A stretch of DNA of 64,000 nt from a bacterium (GCA_035703895.1 DASSXJ010000113.1:4159-68158); one strand, 5' to 3'; numbered from the stretch's first letter, positions 1,112 to 55,701 are shown. Program-made: numbers and translations. Notes: generated from the letters alone by a model not told the origin.

Positions 1112-2005
1112 ATGACGCCAGGAGATCCAACACCGGTTTCCCGGACAGCGGCACCCATGCGGGTTCGGCGAGGGCCGATGTCTAGGCTGCTCCGGAACCG
1201 GGCGGCCGTGGGGGGAGGTGTGGTCGTGCTGGCCGCGGCTCTGGTGGGCCTTCTGGCCCCGGTCGTCGCTCCGTATGATCCGCTTCGGGTAGACTTGTCC
1301 GCGGCTTGGGACCACCCGGACGCCCGGCACCTTCTGGGCGCCGACGAGCTCGGCCGCGACATTTTGAGTCGGATCATCTACGGCAGCCGTACTTCTCTGG
1401 AAATCGCCGTCGTCGGCGTGACCATCGCCCTCGCCCTCGCATTGCTGATCGGGCCGCCGGCCGGATTCTACGGCGGGTGGCTCGATCGCCTGCTCATGCG
1501 ACTGGTGGATGTGATGCTCGCGTTTCCGAGCATCCTGCTTGCGATCGTCATCATCGCGATCATCAGGCCGGGCGTCCTCAGCACCATGCTCGCAGTTGGC
1601 ATCTCCTCGGTCCCGACCTTCGCGCGCCTCGCCAGAGGGTCGACGCTCTCACTGCGCAACGAGGAGTACGTCACGGCGGCACGCGCCGTTGGGGCCACCG
1701 ATGCGCACATCATCGGCGCCCACATCCTCCCCAACCTCGTGACGCCACTTATCGTCCAGTCGACACTTCGGCTCAGCACGATGGTACTGACAGCGGCGGG
1801 GTTGTCGTTCATCGGCCTCGGCGTGCAGCCGCCCTTCCCCGAGTGGGGGACGATGATGAGTCAGGCGCGGTCGGCGATCCGCGAGGCGCCGTTTGGAATC
1901 CTCTTCCCGGGGTTGGCGCTGATGCTTGTGGTGCTTGGCTTTAACCTACTTGGTGACGGCCTACGCGATGCGCTTGATCCGCGCGACGTCAAGCAGGACG
2001 TCTAG
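1112..2005 (+). CDS. ABC transporter permease (DppC/OppC-like)
   Basis: 297-aa ORF with the DppC-type motif LGADELGRDILSRIIYGSRTSL and C-terminus ...GDGLRDALDPR. The start is uncertain (ATG at 1112, 1157 or 1178). It overlaps the convergent downstream gene by 17 nt. Confidence 0.85.
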   Translation: MTPGDPTPVSRTAAPMRVRRGPMSRLLRNRAAVGGGVVVLAAALVGLLAPVVAPYDPLRVDLSAAWDHPDARHLLGADELGRDILSRIIYGSRTSLEIAVVGVTIALALALLIGPPAGFYGGWLDRLLMRLVDVMLAFPSILLAIVIIAIIRPGVLSTMLAVGISSVPTFARLARGSTLSLRNEEYVTAARAVGATDAHIIGAHILPNLVTPLIVQSTLRLSTMVLTAAGLSFIGLGVQPPFPEWGTMMSQARSAIREAPFGILFPGLALMLVVLGFNLLGDGLRDALDPRDVKQDV

Positions 2006-4037
2006 AGCGCGCCACCTCCACCATCGCGTCGAAGGCCGCCTGGCCCGCGGAGAAGCCGAAGGTGTCGACCGCTTCGTCGGGGATCGAGGGAGCCCCCGAG
2101 GTGAGGTTGTTCAACCCTTGCCAGCCGTCACGCATCCACACGGTCCCCGGCGGGATCCGGTCGGTGACGTGTGCGTGCGCCTCGAACTCACCCCGGTCGT
2201 TGAAGATGCGGATCGGTGCGCCGTTCTCCAGGCCTCGTGCCGCCGCATCCGCCGGCGAGACCCACAACTCCGGCCCGGGGTCGAGCCGCGCGAGCGTGGG
2301 CAGCGCCTGGCCGTGGTCGTAGAAGCCGTGAAACTGGGTCAGCGTCCGTCCCTGGCGGAAGCTCAACGGGTAGCCGTCGGACGCGGGCGGCGGGACGTAA
2401 ACCGGCAGGGCTGGAAGCCCGATGGATTTCGCACGCTCCGAGTAGAATTCGATCTTGCGGGAGGGTGTGGGGAAGGCCAGGTCGGGGTGGGCGACGTGGG
2501 AGATGCGCAGTGCCCGGATCCCACCCTCGGCGCGCAGCGCGGCCACGGTCACGCGGCCTGTCGCCGGATGATCGAGCAGGGCGTCGATCAGCCCCTCGTC
2601 CGATTCCCATGGGAAGAAGTCCGCGAGATCAAGGCGGCGTGCCAGCTCACGGAGAATCCGCGTCAACGACCGCGCCTCACCGGCCGGGTCGAGGATCCTC
2701 GGCATGAGGTAGAGGTGGGTGTTCGTGCTCTTGCAGCCCAGCTCCTCAAGCCACGCCGTCGCGGGGAGGACCACATCGGCGAAGCGGCGGGCCGTGTCGT
2801 TCATGAAAAGGTCGTGACAGACGATGAGGTCGGCCCGGGCGAGCCCCCCGGCCACGCGGTCCGCGTCGGCGAACGAAGAGAGCATATCGGTTCCCAGCAG
2901 GAAGAGGACGCGGACGCTGCCGTCGCACAGAGCCTCTGTCATCCGGGACATCTGGTTCGGGACGTAGCGCCCCGGCGGCCGGCGTTCCAGAGCGGTGATG
3001 TCCCCGAGCGCCTGGCCGTGGCTCGCGCCCCCGTGCCGTGGCCCGAGGCCTCCGCCCGGGACGCCGAGGTTTCCGGTGAGCGCTGGGAGACATGCGACGG
3101 CCCGACCCCCCTGCCAGCCGTTCGCGCCCTTGTGCATGGAGCTGCCCCCGAGAAGGATCATCGCGGGCCGGCTTGTGGCGTAGCGGCGGGCGAGCGCCAC
3201 GATCCGATCGGCCGTGAGCCCAGTCTCCCGCGCCGCCCATTCGGGGGAATACGTCCGGATGTGCTCGGTCAGCCGGTCGAAGCCGACCGTATGCGCTTCG
3301 ACGAACTTGGAGTCGTAGAGCCCCTCGCCGACGATCGTGTGGATCAGCGCGAGGGCGAGCGCGGCGTCGGTCCCGGGCCGGATGATGAAGACCTCGTTTG
3401 AGTGCGCCGCCGCCTCGGTGTGGCGTACGTCGATCGTGACGACCCACGCCCCGCGCCGCTTCGCAGCCGCGAGGTAGCGGGCGGTGTTCGGCTGGCTCGC
3501 CAGGTTCGCCCCCCAGAGGAGGATGAAGTTGGCGTGCGCACCCATGTCCTCCTTAGTATTCGTCTCGAGCGGACCCGTGAGCCCGATCCCCAGACCCCCA
3601 AGCCCCCAGCAGATTATCGCCGGGTGCCACCACTGGCAGCCGTAGAGGTTGGCAAAGCGCCGCAAGAGCTGCGGGGCGATGCGCGTCCCGTAATTGTTGG
3701 CAAAGTGGCCGTGGCCCTGCCAGAGCCCCACCGCCTCCCGCCCGGCGGCCTGCATCCGCGCCACGATCAACTCGAACGCTTCGTCCCAGGTCGCCCGCCG
3801 CCAGGCGCCGTCGATTCTTCGGTTGCGAACCAGCGGAAAGAGCACCCGCTTCGGGTTCCCGATGATCTCCCGCGAGGCCTGTCCCCGGATACAGAGGAAT
3901 CCCTGGCTGTCTGGGTTCTCGGGATCGCCCCGCACACCGATGAGTCGCCCGTCCTCCGCTTCCACCAGCATCCCGCAGAGTGTGGGGTGGCAGTTCATGG
4001 GGCACATCGTGCGGATCGTGCGGCGCGCGGCGACCAC
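1989..4037 (-). CDS. molybdopterin-dependent oxidoreductase catalytic subunit (assimilatory nitrate reductase / formate dehydrogenase-like, cytoplasmic)
   Basis: 682 aa. The N-terminal Cys cluster TMCPMNCHPTLC...C is the 4Fe-4S motif of the DMSO-reductase superfamily. Its length and MopB/molybdopterin-binding-like regions fit. No twin-arginine signal. GTG start at 4037 is preceded by a GGGAGGGAG Shine-Dalgarno (SD) sequence 7 nt upstream. Confidence 0.85.
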   Translation of the reverse strand: MVAARRTIRTMCPMNCHPTLCGMLVEAEDGRLIGVRGDPENPDSQGFLCIRGQASREIIGNPKRVLFPLVRNRRIDGAWRRATWDEAFELIVARMQAAGREAVGLWQGHGHFANNYGTRIAPQLLRRFANLYGCQWWHPAIICWGLGGLGIGLTGPLETNTKEDMGAHANFILLWGANLASQPNTARYLAAAKRRGAWVVTIDVRHTEAAAHSNEVFIIRPGTDAALALALIHTIVGEGLYDSKFVEAHTVGFDRLTEHIRTYSPEWAARETGLTADRIVALARRYATSRPAMILLGGSSMHKGANGWQGGRAVACLPALTGNLGVPGGGLGPRHGGASHGQALGDITALERRPPGRYVPNQMSRMTEALCDGSVRVLFLLGTDMLSSFADADRVAGGLARADLIVCHDLFMNDTARRFADVVLPATAWLEELGCKSTNTHLYLMPRILDPAGEARSLTRILRELARRLDLADFFPWESDEGLIDALLDHPATGRVTVAALRAEGGIRALRISHVAHPDLAFPTPSRKIEFYSERAKSIGLPALPVYVPPPASDGYPLSFRQGRTLTQFHGFYDHGQALPTLARLDPGPELWVSPADAAARGLENGAPIRIFNDRGEFEAHAHVTDRIPPGTVWMRDGWQGLNNLTSGAPSIPDEAVDTFGFSAGQAAFDAMVEVARSRRPA

Positions 4038-9341: not shown

Positions 9342-10550
9342 ATGCCAAGGAGAAACCCAGCCAGAAAAGCGGCGGCACGTCAGTCGCGCGGACCTCAGCG
9401 AGTCTTCGGAACACCCCGACCGTCGCAGCACAAGGTCAATTTCAACACGCCGCACCCTCCCTCAACGGGGGTGCCCTTTCAGCAGCTTCCGCCCCCGACC
9501 GGCCGCGCGCCCTACCACATGGCCCTGCAGGACATCATCCCCTCAAGTGTCATGACGGCGATCACGAATGAGGGGAAGATGGTCTTCCACACAGTCGGCG
9601 ATACCGGCGGGATCATGGATGCGACCCCGCAGCTTCTCGTAGCCAACGAGATGGAGAATGACTTTCAGAATCCGCCGAAGAGCCTCTCGGACAACCCGGT
9701 CTTTTTCTACCATTTGGGGGATGTCATCTACTTCAAGGGTGAAGCCGCCAATTACTATCCACAGTTCTACGAGCCGTACCAACATTACCCGGCGCCGATT
9801 GTAGCCATCCCCGGAAACCACGACGGCATTCCCAGTGATCCGAATACCCCGTCGTTGCAGGCATTCATGAGGAATTTCTGTTCCCCGCTACCCACGCACA
9901 GTGCGGATGCGGTAGATGCGACCCGCACCACCATGACCCTGCCGAACGTATACTGGACGTTCGACACCCCCTTCGCCACGATCATCGGATGGTACACGAA
10001 CACCCCCGATCACGGGGAGCTCGACGATCAGCAGATCCAGTGGCTGACCAGCGAACTGAAAGCGGCGCCATCGAAGCGGGCGCTGATTGTCGCCATGCAC
10101 CACCCTATTTTCTCCGCGGATACCGTCCACAGTGGCAGCCAGTATCTGGAAAAGGTGCTCAACGATGCGGTGGCCGCTTCGAAGCGCTTCCCCGACCTCG
10201 TCCTCACCGCGCACGTCCACAACTACCAGCGTTTCACACGTGTCGCGGGGAAACGACAGATTCCGTACATCGTGGCGGGCGCGGGAGGTTATCACAACCT
10301 CCATTATGTCGCCAAAGTGAACGGCCAGAATATGGCCACCCCCGCCCAGGGTCCCGAGCCGGGAGTGACACTGGAACACTATGTAGACAACCGGCACGGC
10401 TTCCTGCGACTGGAAGTGACCAACACAATCATCACTGGAACATATTTTGTCGCGCCGCGTCCGCAAGAACCATGGAGGGGAACCCCAACGCTCGCCGACA
10501 AGTTCACGTTGGACTGGACGGCCAATCAGCTGGTTCCGCTCCAGCCGTAG
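9342..10550 (+). CDS. metallophosphoesterase (calcineurin-like phosphoesterase) with a Pro/Arg-rich N-terminal extension
   Basis: Metal-binding motifs: VGDTGG, HLGDVIY, GNHD, and MHHP...HVHNYQR (GNH[DE]/GH triad pattern). The first ~60 aa (MPRRNPARKAAARQSRGPQRVFGTPRPSQ...PPPTGRAPYH) are low-complexity. The true start could be ATG 9342 (GAGAGGG SD) or the internal ATG at 9579. Confidence 0.8.
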   Translation: MPRRNPARKAAARQSRGPQRVFGTPRPSQHKVNFNTPHPPSTGVPFQQLPPPTGRAPYHMALQDIIPSSVMTAITNEGKMVFHTVGDTGGIMDATPQLLVANEMENDFQNPPKSLSDNPVFFYHLGDVIYFKGEAANYYPQFYEPYQHYPAPIVAIPGNHDGIPSDPNTPSLQAFMRNFCSPLPTHSADAVDATRTTMTLPNVYWTFDTPFATIIGWYTNTPDHGELDDQQIQWLTSELKAAPSKRALIVAMHHPIFSADTVHSGSQYLEKVLNDAVAASKRFPDLVLTAHVHNYQRFTRVAGKRQIPYIVAGAGGYHNLHYVAKVNGQNMATPAQGPEPGVTLEHYVDNRHGFLRLEVTNTIITGTYFVAPRPQEPWRGTPTLADKFTLDWTANQLVPLQP

Positions 10551-10657
10551 ACAATCCCGGCCCAGGCGGTCAGGGGGTCGATTTCCTCTCTATCGTTGAC
10601 AATCCGGGGCTGGTGCGAGAAACGTTCTAGGCCGGATGGCGCCAGCCGTGCGGTCCC

Positions 10658-10852
10658 CTACCCCACTTTCTTGATCGGCACGTTGTGCGACTTCCCGCAG
10701 CGAGGGCATGCCAGCTCGTAGACTCCTTCAAGGTACGCGGACAGAGGATATGGGCTCCACGTTCCGTCCTTGGACGAAAGCCGTGAAGAACAGTTAGGAC
10801 ACGTTACGCCCCGCTCTAGGAACGCAGAGAGCTCCATCACTGCCAGCTGCAT
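10658..10852 (-). CDS. small zinc-ribbon protein (64 aa), hypothetical
   Basis: CPNC...CPRC pair (C-x2-C...C-x2-C). GAGGGG RBS about 6 nt upstream. It sits in a low-GC island, divergent from the small peptide ORF at 10990. Confidence 0.45.
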   Translation of the reverse strand: MQLAVMELSAFLERGVTCPNCSSRLSSKDGTWSPYPLSAYLEGVYELACPRCGKSHNVPIKKVG

Positions 10853-10923
10853 TGCGCCACCCCTCGTTAGCGCTGCATCCGAGCAGGGTACAGAATCGCG
10901 GAAAGGACACCCACGGGTTATAT

Positions 10924-10937
10924 AGTATCAGAATACT
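10924..10937. promoter_or_regulatory. inverted repeat AGTAT-N4-ATACT next to an AT-rich -10-like element (TTATATAGT)
   Basis: Seen directly at 10918-10937, about 55 nt upstream of the small ORF 10990. It is a candidate operator in the divergent promoter region between the Zn-ribbon ORF and the peptide ORF. Confidence 0.3.
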
Positions 10938-10989
10938 CGGCCGTTCGGCGGTACTTAACAGACACATCACATTGCTGGAGGTGTGGCAG

Positions 10990-11145
10990 ATGAGAGGGTT
11001 TCTGTCATTCGTCGTAGGGGCTTGCTTCGTGGTCTTCGCGAGTATCGTGGTTGTTCCCGGTACGGTGTCCCAGCCTCACCCCGCAGGGCTCGGAGGAATC
11101 CATGTGGTTCTGGTTCCTGCCGGAGATGACCCCGGCGGCCACTAG
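10990..11145 (+). CDS. small pre-peptide-like ORF (51 aa) with a signal-peptide/TM-like N-terminus
   Basis: MRGFLSFVVGACFVVFASIVVVPGTVSQPHPAGLGGIHVVLVPAGDDPGGH. GGAGGTG SD 6 nt upstream of the ATG. It lies 220 nt upstream of the XRE-TPR regulator on the same strand. Its codon usage is atypical for this genome. Confidence 0.4.
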   Translation: MRGFLSFVVGACFVVFASIVVVPGTVSQPHPAGLGGIHVVLVPAGDDPGGH

Positions 11146-11364
11146 GTGAGGACCACCAACGGCTCGGTAACAACATGAGGTAACGTCAACGCCGAGCGGC
11201 CGTTTTCAAGCCTTGATCGCACTGCTGTGGTTCCTAGACTCGGCCGGTCCCTCGGCCGGGCTGAAGAATGCGCGGAATAAAGGTATTGGGTCAGAAAAAC
11301 CCGAAAGTGAGCAACCCAAACCACCGGAATTACGAAGGTAAACCCGTTCTGAGCGAGGATTCCA

Positions 11365-12675
11365 ATGGCTTTGCTTGGCGACCGAATACGAAGCCGACGC
11401 AGGGAACTGGGCCTCACGCAATCCAAGCTCGGGGGCGGGGAGCTGACGAAGGGCTTTATCAGCCTCGTTGAGACAGGGCGGACTAAACCCTCGATTGAGA
11501 CCTTGATGCTGCTGGCCGGCCGGCTCCAGAAACCGGTCGGATACTTCCTCGAAGAGGACACGCCGTTAAGCCGGAAGGCACTTCGGATCATGATCGCGTC
11601 CGCCTGGGTCGCGCTGAAACGTGCGGAATTTACACAGGCGGCGGAGTCCTTCGAACAGGCACGCGGTATCGCCCGGAAACACGACGAGGCGGTTGAAGCG
11701 GAGTGCTGTATCGGGTTGGGATCGGCGCTTGCGGGCCTCCGGCAGCTTGATCTTGCACGACGAAACGTCCAACGTGGCAAAGAGTTGGCTGAGGCCACGG
11801 GGAACTCTCAACTGCTTGTGAGGGTCAATCACGTCTTCGGGCTGATAGAGTTCTACGCACGCAATTTTTCAGGCGCCCGGCAGTATTTTCTTGAGGGGCA
11901 TCGCCTCCTGCGTGAGGTCGGCGACCCCGATCTCTCCCTTGCCGGAGAGTTCCTGTTGAAGATCGGGATCACTCACGAAGAGATCGGTGACTATGATGAG
12001 GCGACCCGCTGGTATCAAAAAGCCCTGAGCGCGCTTGAGCCTACGGAGGATCTCGAGCGCATCGGGATGATTCACGTCCGACTCGGCGTGACCTACCGCG
12101 AGAGTGGCCATCACGACATCGCGTTGGCGCAACTGAATCGGGCCGAGCACATTTTCGAGTTACGAAACTCTCTTCGCCTGCTGGCGCAAGCGCGCAACAG
12201 CATCGGGATTACGCTCCTGGAGCAAGGGAAGACGAGTGAAGCACTGATTCAGCTGCGCAGCAGCTTGAATATCAAGGAGATGGTGGGGGACGACCCCGGA
12301 CGGGCGCGAACGCTCACCGAGATCGCCCGGGCACTCATTGCGAAGGGTGCCTTCGAGGAGGCGGGAGACGCCCTCACGCAGGCTGAACGTCTCACGAAGA
12401 AGATTCGGGATGCGACTGAGGGGGCCAGGATCACGCTGGTGCGCGCGCGGCTTTTCCGCGCCATGGGGCGGCTGACCGAGGCGGTCAAGCACTACAAGGA
12501 GGCGGTCACCTCGTTCGATAAGCTGAGCATGCGCACGTATCTTGGAACCGCCTGCAACGAGTTGGGAAACGTCCTCATCAGGCAAAAACGTCGTTCAGAA
12601 GCGGCCCCGTACCTCGCCCGCGCCCTACGATCATTGCAGCCTCTTCACGGACCCCGTTCGACGGAAATGGTGTAG
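11365..12675 (+). CDS. XRE-family helix-turn-helix transcriptional regulator with C-terminal TPR repeat domain (RNPP/Rgg-like architecture)
   Basis: N-terminal HTH_XRE: LGDRIRSRRRELGLTQSKLG...GFISLVETGRTKPSIETLMLLAGRLQKPVGYFL. The remaining ~370 aa contain several TPR-like helical repeats (e.g. EEAIELYQKAL-type segments such as EATRWYQKALSAL and EAVKHYKEAVTSF). GAGGA RBS. Confidence 0.85.
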   Translation: MALLGDRIRSRRRELGLTQSKLGGGELTKGFISLVETGRTKPSIETLMLLAGRLQKPVGYFLEEDTPLSRKALRIMIASAWVALKRAEFTQAAESFEQARGIARKHDEAVEAECCIGLGSALAGLRQLDLARRNVQRGKELAEATGNSQLLVRVNHVFGLIEFYARNFSGARQYFLEGHRLLREVGDPDLSLAGEFLLKIGITHEEIGDYDEATRWYQKALSALEPTEDLERIGMIHVRLGVTYRESGHHDIALAQLNRAEHIFELRNSLRLLAQARNSIGITLLEQGKTSEALIQLRSSLNIKEMVGDDPGRARTLTEIARALIAKGAFEEAGDALTQAERLTKKIRDATEGARITLVRARLFRAMGRLTEAVKHYKEAVTSFDKLSMRTYLGTACNELGNVLIRQKRRSEAAPYLARALRSLQPLHGPRSTEMV

Positions 12676-22067: not shown

Positions 22068-24092
22068 TCACGCGCTCTCCTCGGACACCCGGCCCTGCTC
22101 TCGCGCCTGCTCTACGACGCTGATGAAGACGTCCTCAAGGGAGAACCGTCCCTCCCGGGCGTTGATGACGCGGACCCCGTTCGCCTGCAGGACCCCGGCG
22201 GTCGCGCGCATGGCCCGCTCCGCGTCCTCCTCGGTGATGACGTGGAGCCGATCCCCGAACAGCGAGACCCGCCAGGGCGCGGTGCCTTCCTTCAACACGT
22301 CCGCCGCGCGCTGCGGGGAATCCACACGGAATTCCAGCAGGTGGCTGTGGGCCATCTCCCGCCGCTTGATGTCGCTCGGCGGACCTTCCACGACGAGCTC
22401 GCCGGCCACCATCAGCCCGATCCGGTTGCACTGCTCTGCTTCCTCGAGGTAGTGCGTCGTGACCAAAATCGCGGTGCCGGCGTCGGCGAGCTGGTTGATC
22501 ATGCCCCAGAAGGCGCGACGCGCTAGGGGATCGACGCCCGAGGTCGGCTCGTCGAGGAAGAGGACGCTCGGCTCGTGCATGATCGCCGCACCGAAGGCGA
22601 CGCGCTGTTTCCACCCCCCGGGCAGGCTTGCTGTCATCTGGTCTTGCTTCCCCTCGAGTCCGGAAAATGCGAGCACCCAGCGCGCCTTCTCCTCGCGCTC
22701 GTCGTCCGGCACGCCGTAGACGCCCGCGAAGAACCTGAGGTTCTCCGCTATCGTGAGGTCGTTGTACAGCGAGAATTTCTGCGACATGTAGCCGACCCGC
22801 TGGCGTACCTGGGGCGAGCGCACGGTGCCCCGTTCACCCGCCAGTTCGACCTGTCCGCTTGTGGGGTCGAGGAGGCCGCACAGCATCTTGATCGTCGTCG
22901 TCTTGCCTGCGCCGTTGGCGCCCAGGAGGCCGTAGATCTCGCCGTAGCGCACTTGGATGGCGACGTCCGCGACGGCCGTGAAGCTCCCGAACCGTTTCGT
23001 CAGCCTCGTGGCCCCGATCGCGGTCCGGCCGCGCGTGCCGGCGTGGTCGTGCCGCTGGGGGAAGGGTGCGGCAGCGGGTTCCTGGCCTAGGCCGCGCAGC
23101 GTCGCGACGAATGTGTTCTCGAGTGTGGGCTCATCGACGCGCATCTCCTCGATGGGCACGCCTGCGCGGCCCATCGTCTCCTCGACGAGGCGCCGCGCAT
23201 CATCCGCGTTGTGGACGAGGAGGTCGAGGCGGTCGCCAAATCGCTGGACATCGATGATCTCGCGGCCGGGGCCGCTGGTCTCCATCAGGGCGTGCTCGGC
23301 ATCGCTCAGCGCCGTGGTGCGGAATTCGATCCGTTGGGCGTGCAGGCTCGCCCGCAGCTCCGCCGGAGGTCCCAACTGGTGAATCACACCGAGGTGCATG
23401 AGCGCCACCCGGTGGCAGCGCTCGGCCTCATCAAGGTAGGGAGTGGCGATCAGAATCGTCAGGCCGTCTGCGGCGAGGTGCGCGAGCGCATCCCAGAACT
23501 CGCGGCGTGAGACCGGGTCCACACCGGTCGTCGGCTCGTCCAGCAGCAGCACCTTGGGCTGGGGTACGAGGGCGCAGGCCAGCGCGAGCTTTTGCTTCAT
23601 GCCGCCGCTGAGCTGTCCGGCCAGCCGGTCCGCGAATCGATCCATGTCGAACAACCGGAGATACCGGCGGCCCCGTTCCGTGATATCCCGGAGCGGCACC
23701 TGCCGCAGATCGCCGACATACCGGAGGTTCTCTGCGACGCTTAAATCCGGGTAGAGGCTAAACGTCTGGGTCAGATACCCCGTTTGCGCACGGGCCTCGC
23801 GCGCGGGGCGTCCGAATACCTCCGCGGTCCCTGCCGTGGCCTCCATGACGCCGGCCAGAATCTGGAAGGTCGAGGTCTTGCCTGCGCCGTCCGGGCCGAT
23901 CACGCCGAAGATCTCCCCTGCGCGGACGTCAAACGCGATGCCCCGGACGGCCTCGATCGATCCATAGCGCTTCCACAGGCCGCTGACGCGAATCGCCGTG
24001 CCCGCCGGCGTGGCCTCGGCGCGTTCGTTGACGGTGGAGACGGCGCCCCCGGCCATCACTGACTGTGCCAGCCCTTCCAGCCCGGCGGCCAC
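22068..24092 (-). CDS. ABC transporter ATP-binding protein with two tandem ATPase domains (RbbA/YhiH-like)
   Basis: Two complete sets of Walker A motifs (GPDGAGKTS / GANGAGKTT), signature motifs (LSGGMKQK / LPGGWKQR) and Walker B motifs (LLLDEPT / LFLDEPT). Confidence 0.9.
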   Translation of the reverse strand: MAAGLEGLAQSVMAGGAVSTVNERAEATPAGTAIRVSGLWKRYGSIEAVRGIAFDVRAGEIFGVIGPDGAGKTSTFQILAGVMEATAGTAEVFGRPAREARAQTGYLTQTFSLYPDLSVAENLRYVGDLRQVPLRDITERGRRYLRLFDMDRFADRLAGQLSGGMKQKLALACALVPQPKVLLLDEPTTGVDPVSRREFWDALAHLAADGLTILIATPYLDEAERCHRVALMHLGVIHQLGPPAELRASLHAQRIEFRTTALSDAEHALMETSGPGREIIDVQRFGDRLDLLVHNADDARRLVEETMGRAGVPIEEMRVDEPTLENTFVATLRGLGQEPAAAPFPQRHDHAGTRGRTAIGATRLTKRFGSFTAVADVAIQVRYGEIYGLLGANGAGKTTTIKMLCGLLDPTSGQVELAGERGTVRSPQVRQRVGYMSQKFSLYNDLTIAENLRFFAGVYGVPDDEREEKARWVLAFSGLEGKQDQMTASLPGGWKQRVAFGAAIMHEPSVLFLDEPTSGVDPLARRAFWGMINQLADAGTAILVTTHYLEEAEQCNRIGLMVAGELVVEGPPSDIKRREMAHSHLLEFRVDSPQRAADVLKEGTAPWRVSLFGDRLHVITEEDAERAMRATAGVLQANGVRVINAREGRFSLEDVFISVVEQAREQGRVSEESA

Positions 24093-25321
24093 GCACCCCC
24101 GCTCACCAGGATCTCGCCGTCGGCCGGCATGCCCGGCTTGGCGAGGCCGGTCGCGCCCTTGAGTTGCAGCTTGACGCCAACGACCTGCTTGACGCGGTCC
24201 TGGCGAAAGTAGGTGTTTTCCGGCGTGAACGTGGCCTGAGGATCGATGCGGAGGACCAAGGCGTCGACGGCCCGATTCGGATTCGAATCGAGGTACACGT
24301 GCGCCGGCTGCCCGATCTTGACCTTGCCGATCTGCCCCTCAGGGATAAACCCACGCAGATAGACCTGGCTCAGGTCGAGGAGCGTGACGATTGACGTCCC
24401 AGCGGTCACGACCTCGCCCGGCTCGGCGGAGCGCGTGATCACCGTTCCGCCGAAGGGGGCGCGAACCACGAGATCCTGCCGGTTGGCCTCCGCCTGCGCC
24501 AACGCCGCACGGGCCTGCGCCACCTGGGCGGTGGCGCTCCCGATCGTCGCGTGCTGCTGGACGATCTGCTTCTCTACGGCGGCCATCTGGGCGCCGCGGA
24601 TCCCAGGATTGGCGAGGTTGGCACGGGACGCCGTCAAGGCACCCTTCGCGGCCGCCACGCGCCGCTGTGCCGCCGCGAGCGCCGCCCCCTGCGCCTCGGC
24701 CGCCGTGACGGCCTGCACACGCTGCTGTTCCGATACGGCGCCCTGCTGGGCGAGCCGTGTGAACGCGTTCCGGTTAAAAACCGCATTTTCGTAGGCGGCG
24801 CGCTGTTGGGCCACGTCGGCTTCGGCCGCGGCCAGGTCCGCCTCGCCCTGCCGTACCCGGCCCTCGGCGTCGGTCACCGCTTGTGCCATGAGGAGCTGAT
24901 TCTGTTGCAGCTGCTGCTGGAGTACCGCGATCTGGTCGTTGGCGGCCTGCGCCCGCGCCTCCGCATCCCGCAAGGATGCCCGGGCCTGGTCCTCTTGGGC
25001 CCGGAGTTGTACGTCATCGAGAATCGCGATGACGTCCCCCGCCCGCACGCTGTCGCCTTCGCGCACCCGGACGTCTAAGATCTTCCCCGCCACCTTCGGG
25101 GCGATCGCTGAGTCGTCGCCCTCGATCCGGCCACTGAGCGTGACGATGCTGTCCGGCACCGGAGGCACGGCAAAGTACGTGCGCCAGACGTAGACGCCGA
25201 GGCCGGCGAGCACCACGAGCGCAATGAGCCCGAGCGACCGCCGACGCGCGTGCGGCCGCGCCGCGGAGGGGGCGACCGGTGGCGCCTGCGCGGGAGCGTG
25301 AGCAGCGTCCTGGGCCGTCAT
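24056..25321 (-). CDS. HlyD-family secretion/efflux periplasmic adaptor protein
   Basis: N-terminal TM anchor (LGLIALVVLAGLGVYVW), a long coiled-coil region rich in A/Q/E, and a C-terminal beta-barrel region (VYLRGFIPEGQIGKVKIGQPA). Start chosen at ATG 25321, overlapping the TetR stop. The upstream part of the ORF to 25522 is unlikely. Confidence 0.85.
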   Translation of the reverse strand: MTAQDAAHAPAQAPPVAPSAARPHARRRSLGLIALVVLAGLGVYVWRTYFAVPPVPDSIVTLSGRIEGDDSAIAPKVAGKILDVRVREGDSVRAGDVIAILDDVQLRAQEDQARASLRDAEARAQAANDQIAVLQQQLQQNQLLMAQAVTDAEGRVRQGEADLAAAEADVAQQRAAYENAVFNRNAFTRLAQQGAVSEQQRVQAVTAAEAQGAALAAAQRRVAAAKGALTASRANLANPGIRGAQMAAVEKQIVQQHATIGSATAQVAQARAALAQAEANRQDLVVRAPFGGTVITRSAEPGEVVTAGTSIVTLLDLSQVYLRGFIPEGQIGKVKIGQPAHVYLDSNPNRAVDALVLRIDPQATFTPENTYFRQDRVKQVVGVKLQLKGATGLAKPGMPADGEILVSGGAWPPGWKGWHSQ

Positions 25322-26037
25322 GTCCGCCTCCGAACGGGTATGGACGACGCGCGCCCACGCCAGGACTTGAACGCCTGGAGATATGCCAGCGAAAAGTCGG
25401 CGATGTGATCCGCGATCCGGTCCACCTGCGCAGGCGTCATCTTCAATTCCGGCCACAACCTCGCCAGAATCGGGCGCGCCACGACGTAGTGGACGATCTG
25501 CCCGATGACGCTGTGCGTGCACAGCCGCGTGGTGTCGTGATCGCGCGGCAGCCCCAGGATGGCTCCGACGATGTCCCTGAGGCGATCGTACATCGGCCGC
25601 AGGGCCTCATTCACGACGCGGGACATGGCCGGGGTAGGCTGCGCGAATTCATGGGCCATCAACAGCACGAGCCGCGCCGGCCGATCTCCCTCCCCCACGC
25701 CCCGAAGCCTGAGTTTGATCAAGCGCCTGAGGGCCTGCTCGGGCGGGACGTTCTGGCCCGCCACCGAGCGCATGGGCTCGAGCTGATCCCCACGCACCGC
25801 GTTCCGCAGCACCTCGGTATACAGTCCCAACTTGTCTCCGAAGTGATAGTTGACGGCCGCGATGTTGGCCCCCGCCCGCGCGCAAATCTCGCGGACGGTT
25901 GCGTCGTGGAACCCGCGCTCCGCGAAGACCGCGCCGGCGGCATCGAGCAGCTTCGCGTGGGTAGGATCGCCGGCGCGTGCCTTCGCCGGCTCCCCCTCTG
26001 GGGATCGCCTCGCCTGAAGATTCGGCATTTCAAACAC
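25318..26037 (-). CDS. TetR/AcrR-family transcriptional regulator
   Basis: The N-terminal HTH LLDAAGAVFAERGFHDATVREICARAGANIAAVNYHFGDK is the TetR_N signature. First gene of the efflux operon. Confidence 0.85.
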   Translation of the reverse strand: MFEMPNLQARRSPEGEPAKARAGDPTHAKLLDAAGAVFAERGFHDATVREICARAGANIAAVNYHFGDKLGLYTEVLRNAVRGDQLEPMRSVAGQNVPPEQALRRLIKLRLRGVGEGDRPARLVLLMAHEFAQPTPAMSRVVNEALRPMYDRLRDIVGAILGLPRDHDTTRLCTHSVIGQIVHYVVARPILARLWPELKMTPAQVDRIADHIADFSLAYLQAFKSWRGRASSIPVRRRT

Positions 26038-53273: not shown

Positions 53274-54842
53274 TCAGATGAACTCCTCAACCACCTTGCA
53301 GAACACCTCAGTCACCCGCGGGTCAAACTGGTTGCCCGCACAACGCTTGATCTCCGCCACGGCCTCTGCGACTGTCCGTGCCGGTTTGTAGGGGCGAGCT
53401 TCCGTGATGGCCCCATACGCATCCACCACGGCCAGGATGCGCGAGCCGAGAGGAATCGCGTCGCCTGTCAATCCGTCGGGGTAGCCTGTGCCGTCCCACT
53501 TCTCTTGGTGATGGCGCACAAGCTTTGCCACGCCGCGCATCCGGTCCAACGAGCTGAGGATCTCCTCCCCGAGGATCGGATGCCGCCGCATGGTCGCCCA
53601 CTCTTGTTCCGTGAGGCCGCCCGGTTTACTCAGAATGGCGTCCGGTACGCCGATCTTCCCGATATCGTGCAGCCGGGCTCCCCAGCGGATATCCTGTACC
53701 TCTCCCTCCGGACAGCCGAGCTCGCGCGCGGTGCGCTCGGCCAGGTCCACCATGCGGTCACCGTGTTCGGCGGTGTATGAGTCCCGAGATTCGATGGCTT
53801 GTGCCAGCGCGATCACCATCTGCACGTACGCCTGCTGGAGTTTGTGATGCAGGCGGGCTCTGTGGATCGCCGTCCCCCCGATTTCGGCGATACCTTCCAA
53901 TAACCGGACTTCGGCATCCACGAACGGATGCGATCCAGCCCTCTTGATGCGCCCGAGGGCGATCGTCCCGATAAACTCTTGTTCGGACCGGACAGGAACA
54001 ATGACGACGGGGCCGAGCTGTTGATAGCGCGCCACATCCGGTCCGGCAGAAAGGGCGGTCACGAAATCGTCCGTGACGAACGGGGCGCCCGTCTCTACGA
54101 CACGCCCCGAGGGGGTGCCCGCAAGGGGGAAGGTCGTGCCACGTTCCTCGGTCGGCGTTCCCACCGTGTACACGCGCATGAAGGCCGGCCGGTCTGGACT
54201 CAACAAGGCGAGCGAACCATGATCGGCGCACAGTAACCGCATGCCGTGTCCAAGAAGGACGGGGTACATCTCCTCCGGGGCACAGGCCTTTCGCAGCTGC
54301 GCACTGAGATCGAAGAAGGTTTCCAGTTCGGCCGCGCGCCGGCGGATTTCCGCTTCCGCCGTCTTGCGCTCGGTGATGTCCACTATGGCGCCTTCGAGAT
54401 ATCGGGTCCGACCATTGACGGCGCGGACGGCGTGAGCGCTCGCGCGGATCCACATCGCCGTGCCATCGTGCCGCCACAGCTTACTTTCGAAATCTGCGAC
54501 CACCCCCTCCCGCTCGAGCAGCGTCGTCCACCGCTGCCGCGCCTCGGGATCGACATAGAGAGAGGCCGCGTTTACCGCCATCAGTGTTTCGCGATCTGGA
54601 TAGCCCAAGATGCGCAGAAAGGCGGGGTTGGCATCCAATATTTTCCCGCTCGGCGTGGACCGGTAGAGGCCTATGGGAACGCGTTCGAACAGGCTCCGGT
54701 AGGGCGAGTCGCGCGATGGATCCTCGATGCCTCCCGTATGGCGCGCGGTTGTGGGAGGCCCCGCAATGCCGGCCTCCGCTACGGACCGTCGTGAGCGCAG
54801 CGATGGCACGTTGCCGGCCTTCGGTTTCCCCACGGCTGCCAC
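53274..54842 (-). CDS. PAS-GAF-HD-GYP domain signalling protein (putative c-di-GMP phosphodiesterase)
   Basis: PAS-like N-terminal part (LFERVPIGLYRSTPSGKILDANPAFLRILGY), a GAF-like middle, and C-terminal HD-GYP motifs (HDIGKIGVPD ... GTGYPDGL). The exact start is uncertain because a terminator-like hairpin lies just upstream of the annotated GTG. Confidence 0.8.
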   Translation of the reverse strand: MAAVGKPKAGNVPSLRSRRSVAEAGIAGPPTTARHTGGIEDPSRDSPYRSLFERVPIGLYRSTPSGKILDANPAFLRILGYPDRETLMAVNAASLYVDPEARQRWTTLLEREGVVADFESKLWRHDGTAMWIRASAHAVRAVNGRTRYLEGAIVDITERKTAEAEIRRRAAELETFFDLSAQLRKACAPEEMYPVLLGHGMRLLCADHGSLALLSPDRPAFMRVYTVGTPTEERGTTFPLAGTPSGRVVETGAPFVTDDFVTALSAGPDVARYQQLGPVVIVPVRSEQEFIGTIALGRIKRAGSHPFVDAEVRLLEGIAEIGGTAIHRARLHHKLQQAYVQMVIALAQAIESRDSYTAEHGDRMVDLAERTARELGCPEGEVQDIRWGARLHDIGKIGVPDAILSKPGGLTEQEWATMRRHPILGEEILSSLDRMRGVAKLVRHHQEKWDGTGYPDGLTGDAIPLGSRILAVVDAYGAITEARPYKPARTVAEAVAEIKRCAGNQFDPRVTEVFCKVVEEFI

Positions 54843-55059: not shown

Positions 55060-55509
55060 TCAACCACGATCGGCGTCGGGGGGGGCATCTGCGACCATCG
55101 CAATCTTTCGATCGAGCACGATGATGATCACGAGGTGGTCGGCGGCCGTGTCGAGATCGCTGTGGATGCAGACGACCCGCGCGCCCACCGCTTGTGCGAC
55201 CAGAGTCAACAGCATTGCCCCCCACGCGTCGAGCAGGCTGGTTCGAAATTGCTCGACCAGGCGGCGACCTTCAGGAGTCGCGGCGACATGCGTCTCCGCG
55301 GGGGTGAGCACATTCTTGAGGCGCAGCAGGATCATATCGTCGATCAGATAGACCTTCATGTTCTCCGGTCCCCGGCCGACCTGCTGCTTCATTAACCTCG
55401 TCAGGGCGTTTCCGATCGTCTCTTCCACTCGACGTCTGAGTTGGTCCAAGTCTCGATTCATCTCCCCATCCGGTATCCAGCTGATATTCGCAGACTGGCT
55501 AAGCGCCAT
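55060..55509 (-). CDS. DUF2294 family protein
   Basis: QQVGRGPENMKVYLIDDMILLRLKNVLTPAE matches the DUF2294 core as I recall it. Start at ATG 55509. Confidence 0.6.
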   Translation of the reverse strand: MALSQSANISWIPDGEMNRDLDQLRRRVEETIGNALTRLMKQQVGRGPENMKVYLIDDMILLRLKNVLTPAETHVAATPEGRRLVEQFRTSLLDAWGAMLLTLVAQAVGARVVCIHSDLDTAADHLVIIIVLDRKIAMVADAPPDADRG

Positions 55510-55587
55510 AGAGCGAGGCGCGCCACTCTGCCGTCGAAGCATAGTGTAGGGCGCGTCGCGAGAGAAATCTTTGCGCTACCACAATTC

Positions 55588-55601
55588 TTGCGCAGGCGCA
55601 A
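55588..55601. promoter_or_regulatory. 14-bp palindrome TTGCGC-AG-GCGCAA (candidate operator) with an additional TTGCGC half-site 12 nt upstream
   Basis: Seen directly in the ~190-bp divergent region between the DUF2294 gene and the MEDS-Crp gene. Half-sites at 55571-55576 and 55588-55593/55596-55601. Confidence 0.35.
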
Positions 55602-55701
55602 TGACAGCAGGTGCAGGGAAGGCGTGCGCTGGGCGCTCGTAGAGGATCTTACGCGCCTGAGTGGAAGGGGGACCCTCGCGACAGAGGGCAAGGTGACGAG
55701 T

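What the first reader, a model, noticed from the sequence alone, without database searches (positions are those of the whole stretch)
10550..12675. Candidate peptide-signalling (RNPP/Rgg-like) module in a low-GC island: Zn-ribbon ORF, 51-aa pre-peptide-like ORF, XRE-TPR regulator
The 436-aa regulator joins an XRE helix-turn-helix domain to a long TPR domain. That is the architecture of the Rap/NprR/PlcR/PrgX/AimR (RNPP) and Rgg peptide-sensing receptors.

About 220 nt upstream on the same strand, behind a strong GGAGGTG RBS, is a 51-aa ORF (MRGFLSFVVGACFVVFASIVVVPGTVSQ|PHPAGLGGIHVVLVPAGDDPGGH). Its N-terminus looks like a signal peptide and it has a short hydrophilic C-terminal tail. That is the organisation of pro-peptides whose C-terminal oligopeptide is exported, processed and re-imported to bind the TPR pocket.

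A divergent 64-aa C-x2-C...C-x2-C zinc-ribbon ORF and an AGTAT-N4-ATACT inverted repeat sit in the same island. The island's GC content and codon usage differ from the flanking DNA, suggesting horizontal acquisition.

RNPP-type systems are described almost exclusively in Firmicutes and their phages. A cognate pair in a high-GC lineage would be new. The window also carries five oligopeptide-type ABC importers that could re-import such a peptide.
Basis: partly seen in the sequence, partly recalled or inferred. Interest (0 to 1): 0.75.

Follow-up and report, generated by a model that had tools for sequence, protein, structure and literature searches.

The report
Secreted-peptide and receptor signalling gene pair
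A tiny gene for a secreted peptide sits beside a gene for a DNA-binding TPR receptor in an uncultured high-GC soil bacterium, and the pair recurs in dozens of relatives, making it a strong candidate for peptide quorum sensing of a kind so far described only in Firmicutes.

Summary

The 51-aa ORF is a real gene. A homologous ORF with a signal-peptide-like N-terminus lies next to the regulator in 24 of 35 orthologous loci, plus two loci at about 31% identity. It ends in a conserved ...[LIV]VP-x-GDD-x(1-2)-GG[HG] motif whose residues after GDD vary between close relatives. In one clade the motif unit is amplified to 3-12.5 tandem 18-aa copies. No other neighbouring gene is conserved.

Two cis elements travel with the peptide gene:
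- an AGTA-N6-TACT dyad, which is a candidate operator;
- a 13-nt element whose reverse complement lies after the stop codon. The two copies covary, including through G·U pairs, which suggests an RNA helix clamping the ends of the peptide mRNA.

The lineage is probably candidate phylum CSP1-3 (Sysuimicrobiota), not Bacillota.

The RRNPPA-like reading is therefore well supported by comparison but not tested experimentally. The "low-GC island" claim is weak. The zinc-ribbon gene is a real gene but a neighbour only in the closest relatives.

The parts
10658..10852 (-). 64-aa CxxC...CxxC zinc-ribbon ORF, divergent from the peptide gene. It is a real gene, but a neighbour only in the closest relatives and not part of the conserved cassette.
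   Evidence: Its GC by codon position is coding-like (0.55/0.49/0.69) and GAGGGGTGG precedes the ATG. It is conserved at 83, 69 and 66% amino-acid identity in L154, L156 and L155, with a fragment in L150. It is absent from all other orthologous loci. Only sub-threshold zinc-ribbon Pfam and NCBIfam hits were found.
10924..10937 (.). Dyad AGTAT-CAGA-ATACT (general form AGTA-N6-TACT), directly 5' of the helix arm. It is a candidate operator of the HTH regulator and/or part of the peptide-gene promoter.
   Evidence: It is unique in the window, where 0.12 matches are expected. The form AGTA-N6-TACT is exact in 11 and one mismatch off in 5 more of 23 peptide loci, always 40-75 nt before the peptide start codon. 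It is essentially absent from the peptide-regulator spacer. The arms are conserved while the spacer varies: CAGA, TGGA, GGGA, CAAA.
10939..10951 (+). 5' arm (GGCCGTTCGGCGG) of a long-range helix that brackets the peptide ORF.
   Evidence: It lies 22-40 nt upstream of the peptide start in the loci where the helix is significant. It is complementary to 11189-11201. Covariation is documented.
10977..10983 (+). Shine-Dalgarno-like GGAGGTG, 6 nt before the peptide ATG.
   Evidence: Read directly from the sequence. GGAGG or GGGAGG is also present before the homologous ORFs.
10990..11145 (+). Propeptide gene (51 aa). It has a signal-peptide-like N-terminus and a conserved C-terminal LVPAGDDPGGH (codons 11110-11142).
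   Evidence: A homologous ORF lies adjacent to the regulator in 24 of 35 orthologous loci. In an HMM search of 21,052 six-frame ORF segments, every one of the 29 hits at E below 1e-7 corresponds to a peptide gene adjacent to a regulator orthologue, or separated from it only by an inserted IS in L083. The reading frame is kept, with synonymous changes in the conserved tail. Every precursor has a positive N-region or an in-frame Arg/Lys just upstream of the listed Met, a hydrophobic 12-mer (Kyte-Doolittle 2.4-3.3), and AXA-like sites. Public gene callers call it as a 51-52-aa gene.
11189..11201 (+). 3' arm (ACGCCGAGCGGCC) of the long-range helix, 43 nt after the peptide stop codon and 164 nt before the regulator ATG.
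   Evidence: It is complementary to 10939-10951 (12 bp including one G·U). The helix appears in both the MFE and the centroid fold of 10930-11215. Across 14 loci, 86% of cells are paired, 9 pairs change on both sides, and 0 of 500 shuffles reach the observed values. An unbiased test of the 5'UTR against the 3' flank gave p<0.01 in 17 of 23 loci.
11365..12675 (+). Receptor/regulator (436 aa): XRE-type HTH (about residues 1-62) plus 9 TPRs (18 helices, residues 67-424).

Best explanation
Window 10924-12675 holds a two-gene, RRNPPA-like peptide-signalling cassette from an uncultured high-GC bacterium, probably of candidate phylum CSP1-3/Sysuimicrobiota.

Shown by the sequence and by comparison:
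- A 51-aa precursor gene with a Sec-type-looking N-terminus and a conserved C-terminal ...LVPAGDDPGGH motif is genetically coupled to a cytoplasmic XRE-HTH + 9-TPR protein whose fold is most like Rap/NprR-type pheromone receptors.
- The pair, and nothing else around it, is conserved.
- The residues just after GDD differ between close relatives.
- In one clade the motif unit is tandemly amplified.

Inferred mechanism:
1. The precursor is exported and its signal peptide removed.
2. Extracellular proteases release a short acidic peptide containing GDDxGG (roughly the last 6-11 residues, or one per repeat unit).
3. The peptide accumulates with cell density and is re-imported, for example by one of the family-5 SBP ABC (Opp-type) transporters.
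4. It binds the concave TPR groove, which carries invariant Arg and Asn residues on the A-helices of TPR5-9.
5. Binding switches the HTH on or off at the AGTA-N6-TACT dyad directly upstream of the peptide gene, giving an autoregulatory loop. Further regulon members are unknown.

A second inferred layer: the peptide mRNA has its 5' and 3' ends clamped by a covarying 12-15-bp GC-rich helix (10939-10951 with 11189-11201). This probably defines or stabilises the peptide transcript and insulates it from the regulator gene.
For: Architecture and fold:
- HTH_3 plus TPR families.
- High-confidence model with 9 TPRs.

Coupling of peptide gene and regulator:
- The peptide ORF is found beside regulator orthologues from genomes and metagenomes.
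- All 29 peptide-HMM hits at E below 1e-7 correspond to such peptide genes.
- Starting instead from the peptide side, three close peptide homologues were found. In the two contigs that extend far enough downstream the regulator follows; the third contig ends first.
- Flanking genes differ even at 81-85% regulator identity.
- In L001 the whole peptide unit is inverted yet stays adjacent to the regulator.

Coding and secretion signature:
- The frame is preserved, with synonymous changes in the conserved tail.
- n-, h- and c-region features are present in all 21 precursors, two of them only if an upstream in-frame start is used.

Specificity-like variation in the tail: GDD-P-GGH, -NS-GGH, -GI-GGH, -GP-GGH, -NGAGH, -HGGSG among regulators 75-86% identical.

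Tandem amplification: 54-nt units, 12.5 copies in L015 and 6.1 in L087. This parallels the tandem pheromone duplication known for Rap-Phr (PMC11343458).

Published definition: four of the five RRNPP signature criteria of PMC10075063 are met outright, and the fifth heuristically.

Candidate operator: the dyad is conserved and specific to the peptide gene's upstream region. The HTH is nearly invariant across the family.

More distant relatives with the same architecture: 4 of 7 sampled also carry a small signal-peptide ORF immediately upstream. Their tails are GHGGGEIL..., GHGGGELL...GHGGGDLL, GHGDGGAVG and GRGDMDSF....

Import route: Opp-type importers exist in the window.
Against: - There are no experimental data of any kind, and no SignalP run. 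Secretion was judged by heuristics only.
- The GDD(N)G core is conserved across regulators that are only 50-55% identical. Many RRNPPA pherotypes diverge more than this, so the core could reflect another constraint such as metal binding or processing.
- 11 of 35 orthologous loci lack the peptide gene. These orphans lie next to tRNA-Thr or a methyltransferase gene. 3 of 7 distant relatives also lack it.
- No target gene other than the peptide gene itself is identified, and the dyad occurs only once in 64 kb.
- The envelope type and the import route in this lineage are unknown.
- The gene order (peptide upstream of the receptor, about 220 nt apart) differs from NprR, PlcR, Rap and AimR.
Confidence: 0.62

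Rival explanations
1. The small ORF encodes a secreted or membrane-anchored Gly/Asp/Pro-rich small protein, a repeat protein in some lineages, with a function of its own such as cation binding or a surface or matrix role. The XRE-TPR protein merely regulates it, or senses another ligand. No peptide is re-imported.
For: - The GDD(N)G core is conserved over deep divergence.
- The repeat forms reach roughly 100-280 aa (about 100-175 aa where the frame is intact; the 282-aa L015 ORF has a frame change) and look like Pro/Gly-rich extracellular repeat proteins.
- In the repeat clade the last unit is degenerate, so the motif is not C-terminal there.
- TPR-HTH regulators without any peptide gene exist in the same family.
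Against: - Most forms are only 43-57 aa, which leaves a tail of about 25 aa after the signal peptide.
- Coupling is tight and exclusive, to a receptor whose best structural match is Rap.
- The positions next to the conserved core are hypervariable between close relatives, as expected for a ligand-receptor specificity code.
- Tandem amplification of pheromone units is documented for RRNPPA propeptides.
Confidence: 0.22
2. The small ORF is a RiPP or bacteriocin-type precursor with a C-terminal core (multi-core in the repeat clade), and the XRE-TPR protein is its pathway regulator.
For: The precursor is short with a conserved C-terminal core and has multi-core variants. A weak NCBIfam similarity of the TPR region to a RiPP-associated TPR protein (HaaT) scored 34.8 bits against a cut-off of 1125.
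Against: - No modifying enzyme, dedicated exporter or immunity gene is conserved beside the pair, and the neighbours differ in every clade.
- The N-terminus looks like a Sec signal peptide, not a RiPP leader.
- The core contains no Cys, Ser or Thr pattern typical of the common RiPP classes.
Confidence: 0.05
3. The two inverted 13-nt copies flanking the peptide ORF act at the DNA level rather than as an RNA helix. They would be either two operators bound by the regulator (looping, as with the two PrgX sites) or the inverted repeats of an invertible segment.
For: - The core GCCG-NN-CGGC is itself a small palindrome.
- The upstream copy abuts the dyad.
- One locus (L001) has the peptide gene in the opposite orientation.
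- No convincing U-tract follows the 3' copy in the closest relatives, and the scan found no terminator.
Against: - The copies covary at positions that make the site asymmetric: AACC/GGTT in L012, GGTCG/CGACC in L072, GGTGC/GCACC in L073 and L084. Independent operators would not be expected to do this.
- 7 of the 12 cells in the 13-bp core that are not Watson-Crick are G·U or U·G on the + strand, and 5 are true mismatches. G·U pairs would be A·C mismatches on the other strand.
- Half-sites 6 bp apart are too close for a classical HTH dimer (own knowledge).
- In L001 the inversion also includes the dyad, which lies outside the repeats, so it is a rearrangement of the whole unit and not a flip between the repeats.
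- Every other assembly shows a single orientation.
- No recombinase gene is conserved nearby.
- Orphan regulators lack both copies, so the element belongs to the peptide gene and not to the regulator's promoter.
Confidence: 0.2
4. The 51-aa ORF is a chance ORF and the regulator is a generic XRE-TPR transcription factor with no peptide link.
For: Many chance ORFs of this size occur in high-GC DNA. The ORF has no Pfam, NCBIfam or PHROG match.
Against: - An ORF of conserved length, position and strand with a conserved C-terminal motif is present in at least 24 diverged loci.
- Synonymous substitutions occur in the conserved tail.
- A conserved RBS precedes it.
Confidence: 0.02

Closest known systems
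NprR-NprX (Bacillus cereus group; RRNPPA family)
   Same: - An XRE-type HTH fused to about nine TPRs in a protein of about 420-440 aa (NprR architecture from own knowledge; here).
- A Sec-type propeptide of about 40-55 aa encoded next to the receptor.
- In the repeat clade the pheromone motif is not at the extreme C-terminus, so processing on both sides would be needed, as for NprX.
- JGI's automatic annotation already labels several orthologues 'quorum sensing regulator NprR'.
   Different: - Identity in structural alignments is only 12-16%, and no NprR-specific model is matched.
- The peptide gene lies upstream of the receptor, about 220 nt away as its own unit, instead of directly downstream.
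- The peptide is acidic and Gly-rich (GDDxGG), unlike SKPDIVG-type NprX (own knowledge).
- The lineage is outside Bacillota.
- An RNA clamp surrounds the peptide ORF.
- No adjacent target gene such as nprA is present.
Rap-Phr (Bacillus and its phages and plasmids), including tandemly duplicated Phr propeptides
   Same: - The propeptide has a Sec signal and a C-terminal pheromone.
- Propeptides can carry several tandem copies of the pheromone unit (PMC11343458).
   Different: - Rap proteins have an N-terminal 3-helix bundle and act on proteins, not on DNA (own knowledge, and the introduction read). This protein has an HTH instead.
- The reported repeat number is 1-4, whereas arrays here reach 6 and 12.5 units.
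- Gene order and phylum differ.
PlcR-PapR (Bacillus cereus group)
   Same: - XRE HTH plus TPR. The HTH of the family profile matches the PlcR HTH (E 5e-8).
- The active peptide is the C-terminal end of a secreted propeptide.
- A palindromic box lies upstream of the autoregulated peptide gene (PlcR box TATGNAN4TNCATA, own knowledge), comparable to AGTA-N6-TACT here.
   Different: - papR lies downstream of plcR.
- The peptide chemistry differs.
mRNAs whose 5' and 3' untranslated regions base-pair, such as Staphylococcus aureus icaR (own knowledge; not checked in the literature tools)
   Same: A long-range intramolecular helix forms between the 5' UTR and the 3' flank of one short transcription unit.
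   Different: In icaR the 3' UTR pairs with the Shine-Dalgarno region to block translation. Here the 5' arm lies about 25 nt upstream of the RBS and leaves it free. The function here is unknown, and there is no Rfam family.

Membership tests
RRNPP(A)-type peptide quorum-sensing systems (signature of Bernard et al. 2023, PMC10075063) | 1. The propeptide is small (10-100 aa). | tested here: met
   It is 51 aa in the window and 43-64 aa in most orthologous loci. The repeat-clade precursors exceed this range, at roughly 100-280 aa.
RRNPP(A)-type peptide quorum-sensing systems (signature of Bernard et al. 2023, PMC10075063) | 2. The propeptide is secreted through the SEC translocon (SignalP prediction). 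| tested here: inconclusive
   SignalP was not available. By heuristic, all 21 precursors have a hydrophobic 12-mer with Kyte-Doolittle 2.4-3.3 and AXA-like sites at residues 13-27. 19 have a net positive N-region from the listed start; L007 and L087 have it only if an upstream in-frame start is used. The window's own c-region (VPG|T, TVS|Q) is less canonical than, for example, ANA|S in L009 and L016.
RRNPP(A)-type peptide quorum-sensing systems (signature of Bernard et al. 2023, PMC10075063) | 3. The receptor is about 250-500 aa long. | tested here: met
   It is 436 aa, and complete orthologues are 419-478 aa.
RRNPP(A)-type peptide quorum-sensing systems (signature of Bernard et al. 2023, PMC10075063) | 4. 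The receptor carries TPRs. | tested here: met
   TPR_12 E 9e-32 and further TPR families. The AF2 model has nine TPRs.
RRNPP(A)-type peptide quorum-sensing systems (signature of Bernard et al. 2023, PMC10075063) | 5. The receptor and propeptide genes are direct neighbours. | tested here: met
   They lie 219 nt apart on the same strand with no gene between them. The same holds in the orthologous loci. In L001 the two are divergent, and in L083 an IS is inserted between them.
RRNPP(A)-type peptide quorum-sensing systems | The mature peptide binds the TPR groove of the cytoplasmic receptor and changes its activity. | not testable with these tools
   Only indirect support is available. The fold is closest to peptide-binding Rap proteins. 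Invariant or nearly invariant Arg and Asn residues (R232, R313, R315, R322, R355, N398) lie on the A-helices of TPR5-9, opposite an acidic peptide. A co-fold of receptor and peptide could not be submitted.
RRNPP(A)-type peptide quorum-sensing systems | The peptide is re-imported by an oligopeptide permease (Opp). | not testable with these tools
   Three SBP_bac_5 ABC systems are present in the window, but nothing links them specifically to this peptide, and they are not conserved next to the cassette.
RRNPP(A) founding subfamilies (Rap, Rgg, NprR, PlcR, PrgX, AimR) by sequence homology | A significant match to a subfamily-specific profile. | tested here: not met
   Pfam gives only generic TPR families and HTH_3. 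No NCBIfam model is above its cut-off. In the PDB profile search, PlcR matches through the HTH only and Rap-pLS20 at E 1e-7, ranking below the designed TPR proteins. This is therefore a separate family and is not filed under any founding subfamily.
Rap subfamily | An N-terminal 3-helix bundle effector domain without a DNA-binding HTH. | tested here: not met
   HTH_3 occupies residues 8-61, and there are five short N-terminal helices typical of XRE HTH domains.

The most novel reading that the evidence does not exclude
This is the first RRNPPA-type peptide quorum-sensing family outside Bacillota. It would be native to the uncultured soil and hot-spring phylum CSP1-3/Sysuimicrobiota, with more distant relatives in other high-GC uncultured lineages. 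Its features would be an acidic GDDxGG pheromone code, precursors carrying up to about 12 tandem pheromone units, and a previously undescribed covarying 5'-3' RNA clamp that packages the pheromone mRNA as a self-contained unit.
Probability: 0.45. Interest if true: 0.8.

Novelty: new variant of a known kind. Interest (0 to 1): 0.72.

Why it matters
Cytoplasmic-receptor peptide quorum sensing (RRNPPA) is treated in the literature as a Bacillota trait. The large surveys read here describe it that way: PMC9765709 screened RefSeq with subfamily-specific profiles, and PMC10075063 ran its detector on Firmicutes and viruses.

A conserved receptor-propeptide family in CSP1-3 would change that picture. 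CSP1-3 is an abundant but uncultured soil phylum with 62-74% GC. The finding would:
- show that the mechanism is older or more mobile than assumed;
- give a concrete, synthesisable signal (GDDxGG peptides) for probing, and perhaps stimulating the cultivation of, an uncultured phylum;
- extend the known range of tandem pheromone amplification from 1-4 copies to about 12.

The covarying RNA helix around the peptide ORF is a separate candidate for a new post-transcriptional device. It is directly testable, and nothing like it is in Rfam.

Tried and rejected
- **Rfam.** An E-value scan of 10700-11450 found no family.
- **Promoter and terminator scan.** No sigma-70 promoter was found on the + strand of 10600-11450, and no intrinsic terminator. 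The idea that the 3' arm plus a T-run forms a terminator stays speculative, because the T-run is not conserved in the closest relatives.
- **Inverton hypothesis.** Rejected. The L001 inversion includes the dyad, which lies outside the repeats, and all other assemblies share one orientation.
- **Zinc-ribbon ORF as part of the conserved module.** Rejected beyond the nearest sub-clade.
- **Low-GC island or horizontal acquisition.** The GC dip is small and not unique in the window. No tRNA and no mobility gene lie nearby. L154 keeps the same arrangement, metallophosphoesterase, zinc ribbon, peptide, regulator.
- **Second regulator paralogue or further dyad sites in the window.** None found.
- **Phage link.** The PHROG and BFVD searches gave only generic HTH and TPR matches.
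- **AFDB fold search.** The library was unavailable.
- **Taxonomy of the window.** Cluster names were uninformative. The molybdopterin oxidoreductase search only showed that the contig is a 78-kb 'MAG TPA: bacterium', with Rokubacteria-like relatives for that enzyme. The lineage assignment therefore rests on the regulator's nearest genomic relatives.
- **Word-index search with the 51-aa peptide.** It found only 4 proteins.
- **L003.** Its putative 'peptide' did not match the peptide HMM and was treated as absent.
- **Helix exceptions.** L009, L015, L074 and L002 lack a significant helix, and L027 is borderline at p=0.07. L016 also scored non-significant in that test, but its variant helix (14 nt, one mismatch) lay outside the 75-nt test window.

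Full report
**Observation**

- The 436-aa ORF 11365-12675 (+) has an XRE-type HTH (Pfam HTH_3, residues 8-61) followed by TPRs (TPR_12 E 9e-32 and many others).
- The 51-aa ORF 10990-11145 (+) has the quoted sequence. GGAGGTG lies 6 nt before its ATG, and it ends 219 nt before the regulator.
- A 64-aa CxxC...CxxC ORF lies divergently at 10658-10852.
- AGTATCAGAATACT at 10924-10937 is the only such site in 64 kb, where 0.12 are expected.

The "low-GC island" is weak. The 10-12 kb bin has 59.2% GC, but two other bins have 60.1% and 60.4%. GC3 is only moderately lower than in the neighbours. At least three SBP_bac_5 (Opp/Dpp-type) ABC systems are in the window.

**The regulator**

About 95 orthologues at 44% identity or more exist, all from MAGs or metagenomes. 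JGI's pipeline labels some of them "quorum sensing regulator NprR".

An AlphaFold2 model built on a 33-sequence alignment is confident (pLDDT 90.2) and shows a five-helix HTH plus 18 helices, that is nine TPRs.
- Foldseek gives TM 0.70/0.83 to RapI and 0.65/0.79 to apo NprR.
- At the sequence level only generic TPR and HTH models match, and no curated RRNPPA subfamily model is hit.

An exhaustive profile search shows that the family proper collapses to three 50%-identity clusters. Below them lies a shell of same-length (about 420-480 aa) relatives scoring roughly 190-320 bits. So this is a distinct family with the NprR-like architecture (HTH plus a Rap-like nine-TPR domain). It is not a member of a founding subfamily.

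**The small ORF is a gene coupled to the regulator**

I examined the DNA upstream of the orthologues in 69 genome loci and 80 metagenome loci.
- A small ORF lies on the same strand, usually 110-290 nt upstream of the regulator. Its N-terminus is positively charged and then strongly hydrophobic, and its C-terminus is conserved.
- Examples of the C-terminus: window ...VVLVPAGDDPGGH; L150 ...LVPAGDDNSGGH; L152 ...LVPAGDDGIGGH; L071 ...LVPAGDDGPGGH; L074 ...MVPAGDDNGAGH; L018 ...LVPAGDDHGGSG; L072 ...IPFGDDNGGSH; L073 ...IPLGDDAGGSH; L002 ...EPAGDDNDGSH; L012 ...LVAAGDDNPAGG; L009 and L016 ...LVADGDVNGAGG; L025 and L027 (regulators only about 31% identical) ...VAGENLPNGN.
- An HMM of these peptides was searched against all 21,052 six-frame ORF segments of 153 loci plus the window. 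Every one of the 29 hits at E below 1e-7 corresponds to a peptide gene beside a regulator orthologue, or separated from it only by an inserted IS in L083. There were no comparable hits elsewhere.
- Counting unique loci with at least 44% identity and enough upstream DNA, 24 of 35 carry the peptide gene.
- Searching from the peptide side found three close homologues (63-80% identical, all ending VLVPAGDDPGGH). Where the contig extends far enough, in two of the three, the regulator follows downstream.
- The frame is preserved with indels in multiples of three. The conserved tail shows synonymous changes such as GAC/GAT, GTT/GTG and CCT/CCC.
- All 21 precursors have n-, h- and c-region features of Sec signal peptides, two of them only if an upstream in-frame start is used. 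This is by heuristic, because SignalP was not available.
- The other flanking genes are not conserved even at 81-85% regulator identity. L150 has RraA, radical-SAM and CofD genes, and L152 has guanylate cyclase-TPR, DUF4331 and HupE genes.

The conserved unit is therefore the pair.

**Tandem amplification**

In one regulator clade (54-57% identity to the window) the precursor carries tandem 18-aa units, AVYG[LV]PPLVP[QA]GDDNG[PG][GS]. L011 has three, L006 five, L087 6.1 (54-nt period, 93% matches) and L015 12.5 (96% matches). The last unit is degenerate.

RRNPPA propeptides with 1-4 tandem pheromone copies are documented and were shown to yield several active peptides (PMC11343458). The arrays here exceed that range.

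**Cis elements**

It is exact in 11 and one mismatch off in 5 more of 23 peptide loci. It always lies 40-75 nt before the peptide start, and it is essentially absent from the spacer between peptide gene and regulator. Its arms are conserved while the inner spacer varies. Helix 29-36 of the HTH (KGFISLVE), probably the recognition helix, is almost invariant across the family (0.94, against 0.70 for the TPR region). This is what a common operator would predict, but it is an inference.

*(ii) The long-range helix.* Directly 3' of the dyad lies GGCCGTTCGGCGG (10939-10951). Its reverse complement lies after the peptide stop codon (11189-11201, ACGCCGAGCGGCC).
- The two copies covary: L012 AACC.../...GGTT; L072 GGTCG...GT/AC...CGACC; L073 and L084 ...GGTGC/GCACC...; L001 and L071 ...GCGC/GCGC.... 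L016 has a different helix sequence at the same topological position.
- On a 14-locus alignment, 86% of cells are paired and 9 of 17 pairs change on both sides. 0 of 500 shuffles reach the observed values, and sliding the partner drops pairing to 22-49%.
- Of the 12 cells in the 13-bp core that are not Watson-Crick, 7 are G·U or U·G on the + strand and 5 are mismatches. This favours pairing of + strand RNA.
- An unbiased search for the best 5'UTR-3' flank helix beats shuffles at p<0.01 in 17 of 23 loci.
- The helix closes the MFE and centroid folds of the window, L012 and L073 transcripts.
- In L001 the whole unit (dyad, 5' arm, RBS, ORF, 3' arm) is inverted relative to the regulator and keeps a perfect helix. 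Orphan regulators lack both arms. The helix therefore belongs to the peptide transcription unit.
- There is no Rfam match, and the scan found no canonical promoter or terminator.

**Lineage**

The nearest genome hit (75% identity) is "Bacillati bacterium ANGP1 isolate NP_7". NP-7 is a surface-soil family of candidate phylum CSP1-3, whose GC is 62-74% (PMC11962464). The 31%-identity locus L027 is Candidatus Calidihabitans, of Sysuimicrobiota, which is CSP1-3. Other hits carry loose NCBI labels: "Bacillota bacterium", "uncultured Firmicutes", "Armatimonadota" and "bacterium".

The window itself is identical, for one gene, to a 78-kb "MAG TPA: bacterium" contig. CSP1-3 is therefore probable but not independently proven for this window.

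**More distant relatives**

Seven same-architecture proteins from the roughly 190-320-bit shell were sampled.
- Four have a small signal-peptide ORF immediately upstream on the same strand: L158 ...AFA|GHGGGEILRSPSGAASQGDR; L160 ...ALA|GHGGGELLGAGADSTRGHGGGDLL (the motif occurs twice); L159 ...GHGDGGAVG; L162 ...AFA|GRGDMDSFGAAVRN. These contigs have 67-72% GC where it was measured (L158-L160).
- Three have none.
- The GHGGG[GE]IL motif also occurs in the pro-region of L018 and L070.

**Mechanism**

*Shown:* the architecture of the two proteins; their exclusive genetic coupling; the conserved tail with variable positions next to it; tandem amplification; the conserved dyad; and the covarying helix.

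*Inferred* by analogy with RRNPPA systems (described): Sec export, extracellular processing to a short GDDxGG peptide, density-dependent accumulation, re-import by an Opp-type transporter, binding in the TPR groove, and altered binding of the HTH at the dyad, which would auto-regulate the peptide gene.

Whether the peptide activates or inhibits the receptor is unknown, and so is what else the receptor controls. The RNA helix probably defines, stabilises or insulates the peptide mRNA. That is the least certain step.

**Rivals**

1. The product is a secreted or anchored Gly/Asp-rich protein with its own function, merely regulated by the TPR protein (0.22). The deeply conserved GDD core and the long repeat forms favour this. 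The 25-aa mature tails, the Rap-like receptor and the hypervariable positions next to the core argue against it.
2. It is a RiPP precursor (0.05). No conserved enzymes or transporters lie nearby.
3. The 13-nt copies are DNA operators or invertible-segment repeats (0.20). Asymmetric covariation, the G·U pairs, the short half-site spacing and the L001 arrangement argue against this.
4. It is a chance ORF (0.02). This is excluded.

**Comparison with known systems, and novelty**

The pair meets four of the five published RRNPP signature criteria outright, and the fifth (SEC secretion) heuristically. It works like an RRNPPA system. By sequence it belongs to none of the founding subfamilies.

The differences are the gene order, the acidic Gly-rich peptide, arrays of up to 12.5 units, the mRNA clamp, and a host lineage outside Bacillota. 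The RRNPPA literature read here treats these systems as a Bacillota trait, and none of the papers read or listed mentioned such systems in other phyla.

I rate it a new variant of a known kind. Interest is high, because it is specific, widespread in an abundant uncultured phylum, and directly testable with synthetic peptides.

Noticed in passing
L004, L005, L013, L075, L019, L020, L078, L082 (also L002, L003): about 200 nt upstream of the regulator: Regulator orthologues without a peptide gene form separate clades. They sit next to a divergent tRNA-Thr(GGT). Their upstream DNA keeps an 'ATATTGTACCATTAAAC'-like stretch that resembles the dyad/TAAAC region of the peptide loci, but with the 13-nt arm and the ORF missing. 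L002 has the peptide gene between the same tRNA and the regulator, so tRNA-Thr may be the ancestral position.
   Followed up: partly
L010 and L015 (same contig CAWBBU010000005.1, about 7 kb apart): Two paralogous regulators lie on one contig. Only L015 has a precursor (the 12.5-unit one). L010 follows a 23S rRNA methyltransferase-like ORF and has no peptide gene. Several MAGs likewise hold one regulator with a peptide gene and one orphan regulator (SMAG_U12602: L009/L020; NP_3: L016/L019).
   Followed up: partly
L083 761-1810: A 349-aa transposase-like ORF (HTH plus DDE-type, IS630-like by eye) is inserted between a single-copy peptide gene (...LVPAGDDGGGSH) and the regulator.
   Followed up: no
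L015 2899-3747: The 12.5-unit repeat array changes reading frame within the assembly: two overlapping ORFs carry the same units. This is probably an assembly or collapse artefact in a 96%-identical 54-nt array, so the true copy number is uncertain.
   Followed up: no
L158 and L160 (distant relatives): genes flanking the small ORF and regulator: These two loci share a wider conserved context: a cold-shock protein (CSD), the small ORF, the XRE-TPR regulator, a small GerE/LuxR-type HTH protein that overlaps the regulator's stop codon, and a Polbeta nucleotidyltransferase. This may point to downstream targets or partners in that branch.
   Followed up: no
window 53274-54842 (-) and 55441-56943 (+): Two further sensory regulators are present: a PAS-GAF-HD_5 (HD-GYP-like) protein and a MEDS-cNMP-binding-Crp HTH protein.
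   Followed up: no
window 22068-25522 (-): A double ABC ATPase (674 aa) lies next to a HlyD-family membrane-fusion protein (488 aa). This could be an exporter. It is not conserved with the cassette.
   Followed up: no
window 9342-10550 (+): The 402-aa metallophosphoesterase ORF has a roughly 60-aa low-complexity Pro/Arg-rich N-terminal extension. The true start is probably further downstream (M60 or M71). The gene is 95% identical in L154, which is syntenic with the window across metallophosphoesterase, zinc ribbon, peptide gene and regulator.
   Followed up: partly
window 1989-4037 (-): This molybdopterin oxidoreductase is 100% identical to a protein on a 78-kb 'MAG TPA: bacterium' contig. 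Among its homologues at 73-87% identity that carry a taxon name, most are labelled Rokubacteria, Methylomirabilota or NC10; most homologues are unnamed or labelled only 'bacterium'. This suggests either gene sharing among soil phyla or mislabelled bins.
   Followed up: no
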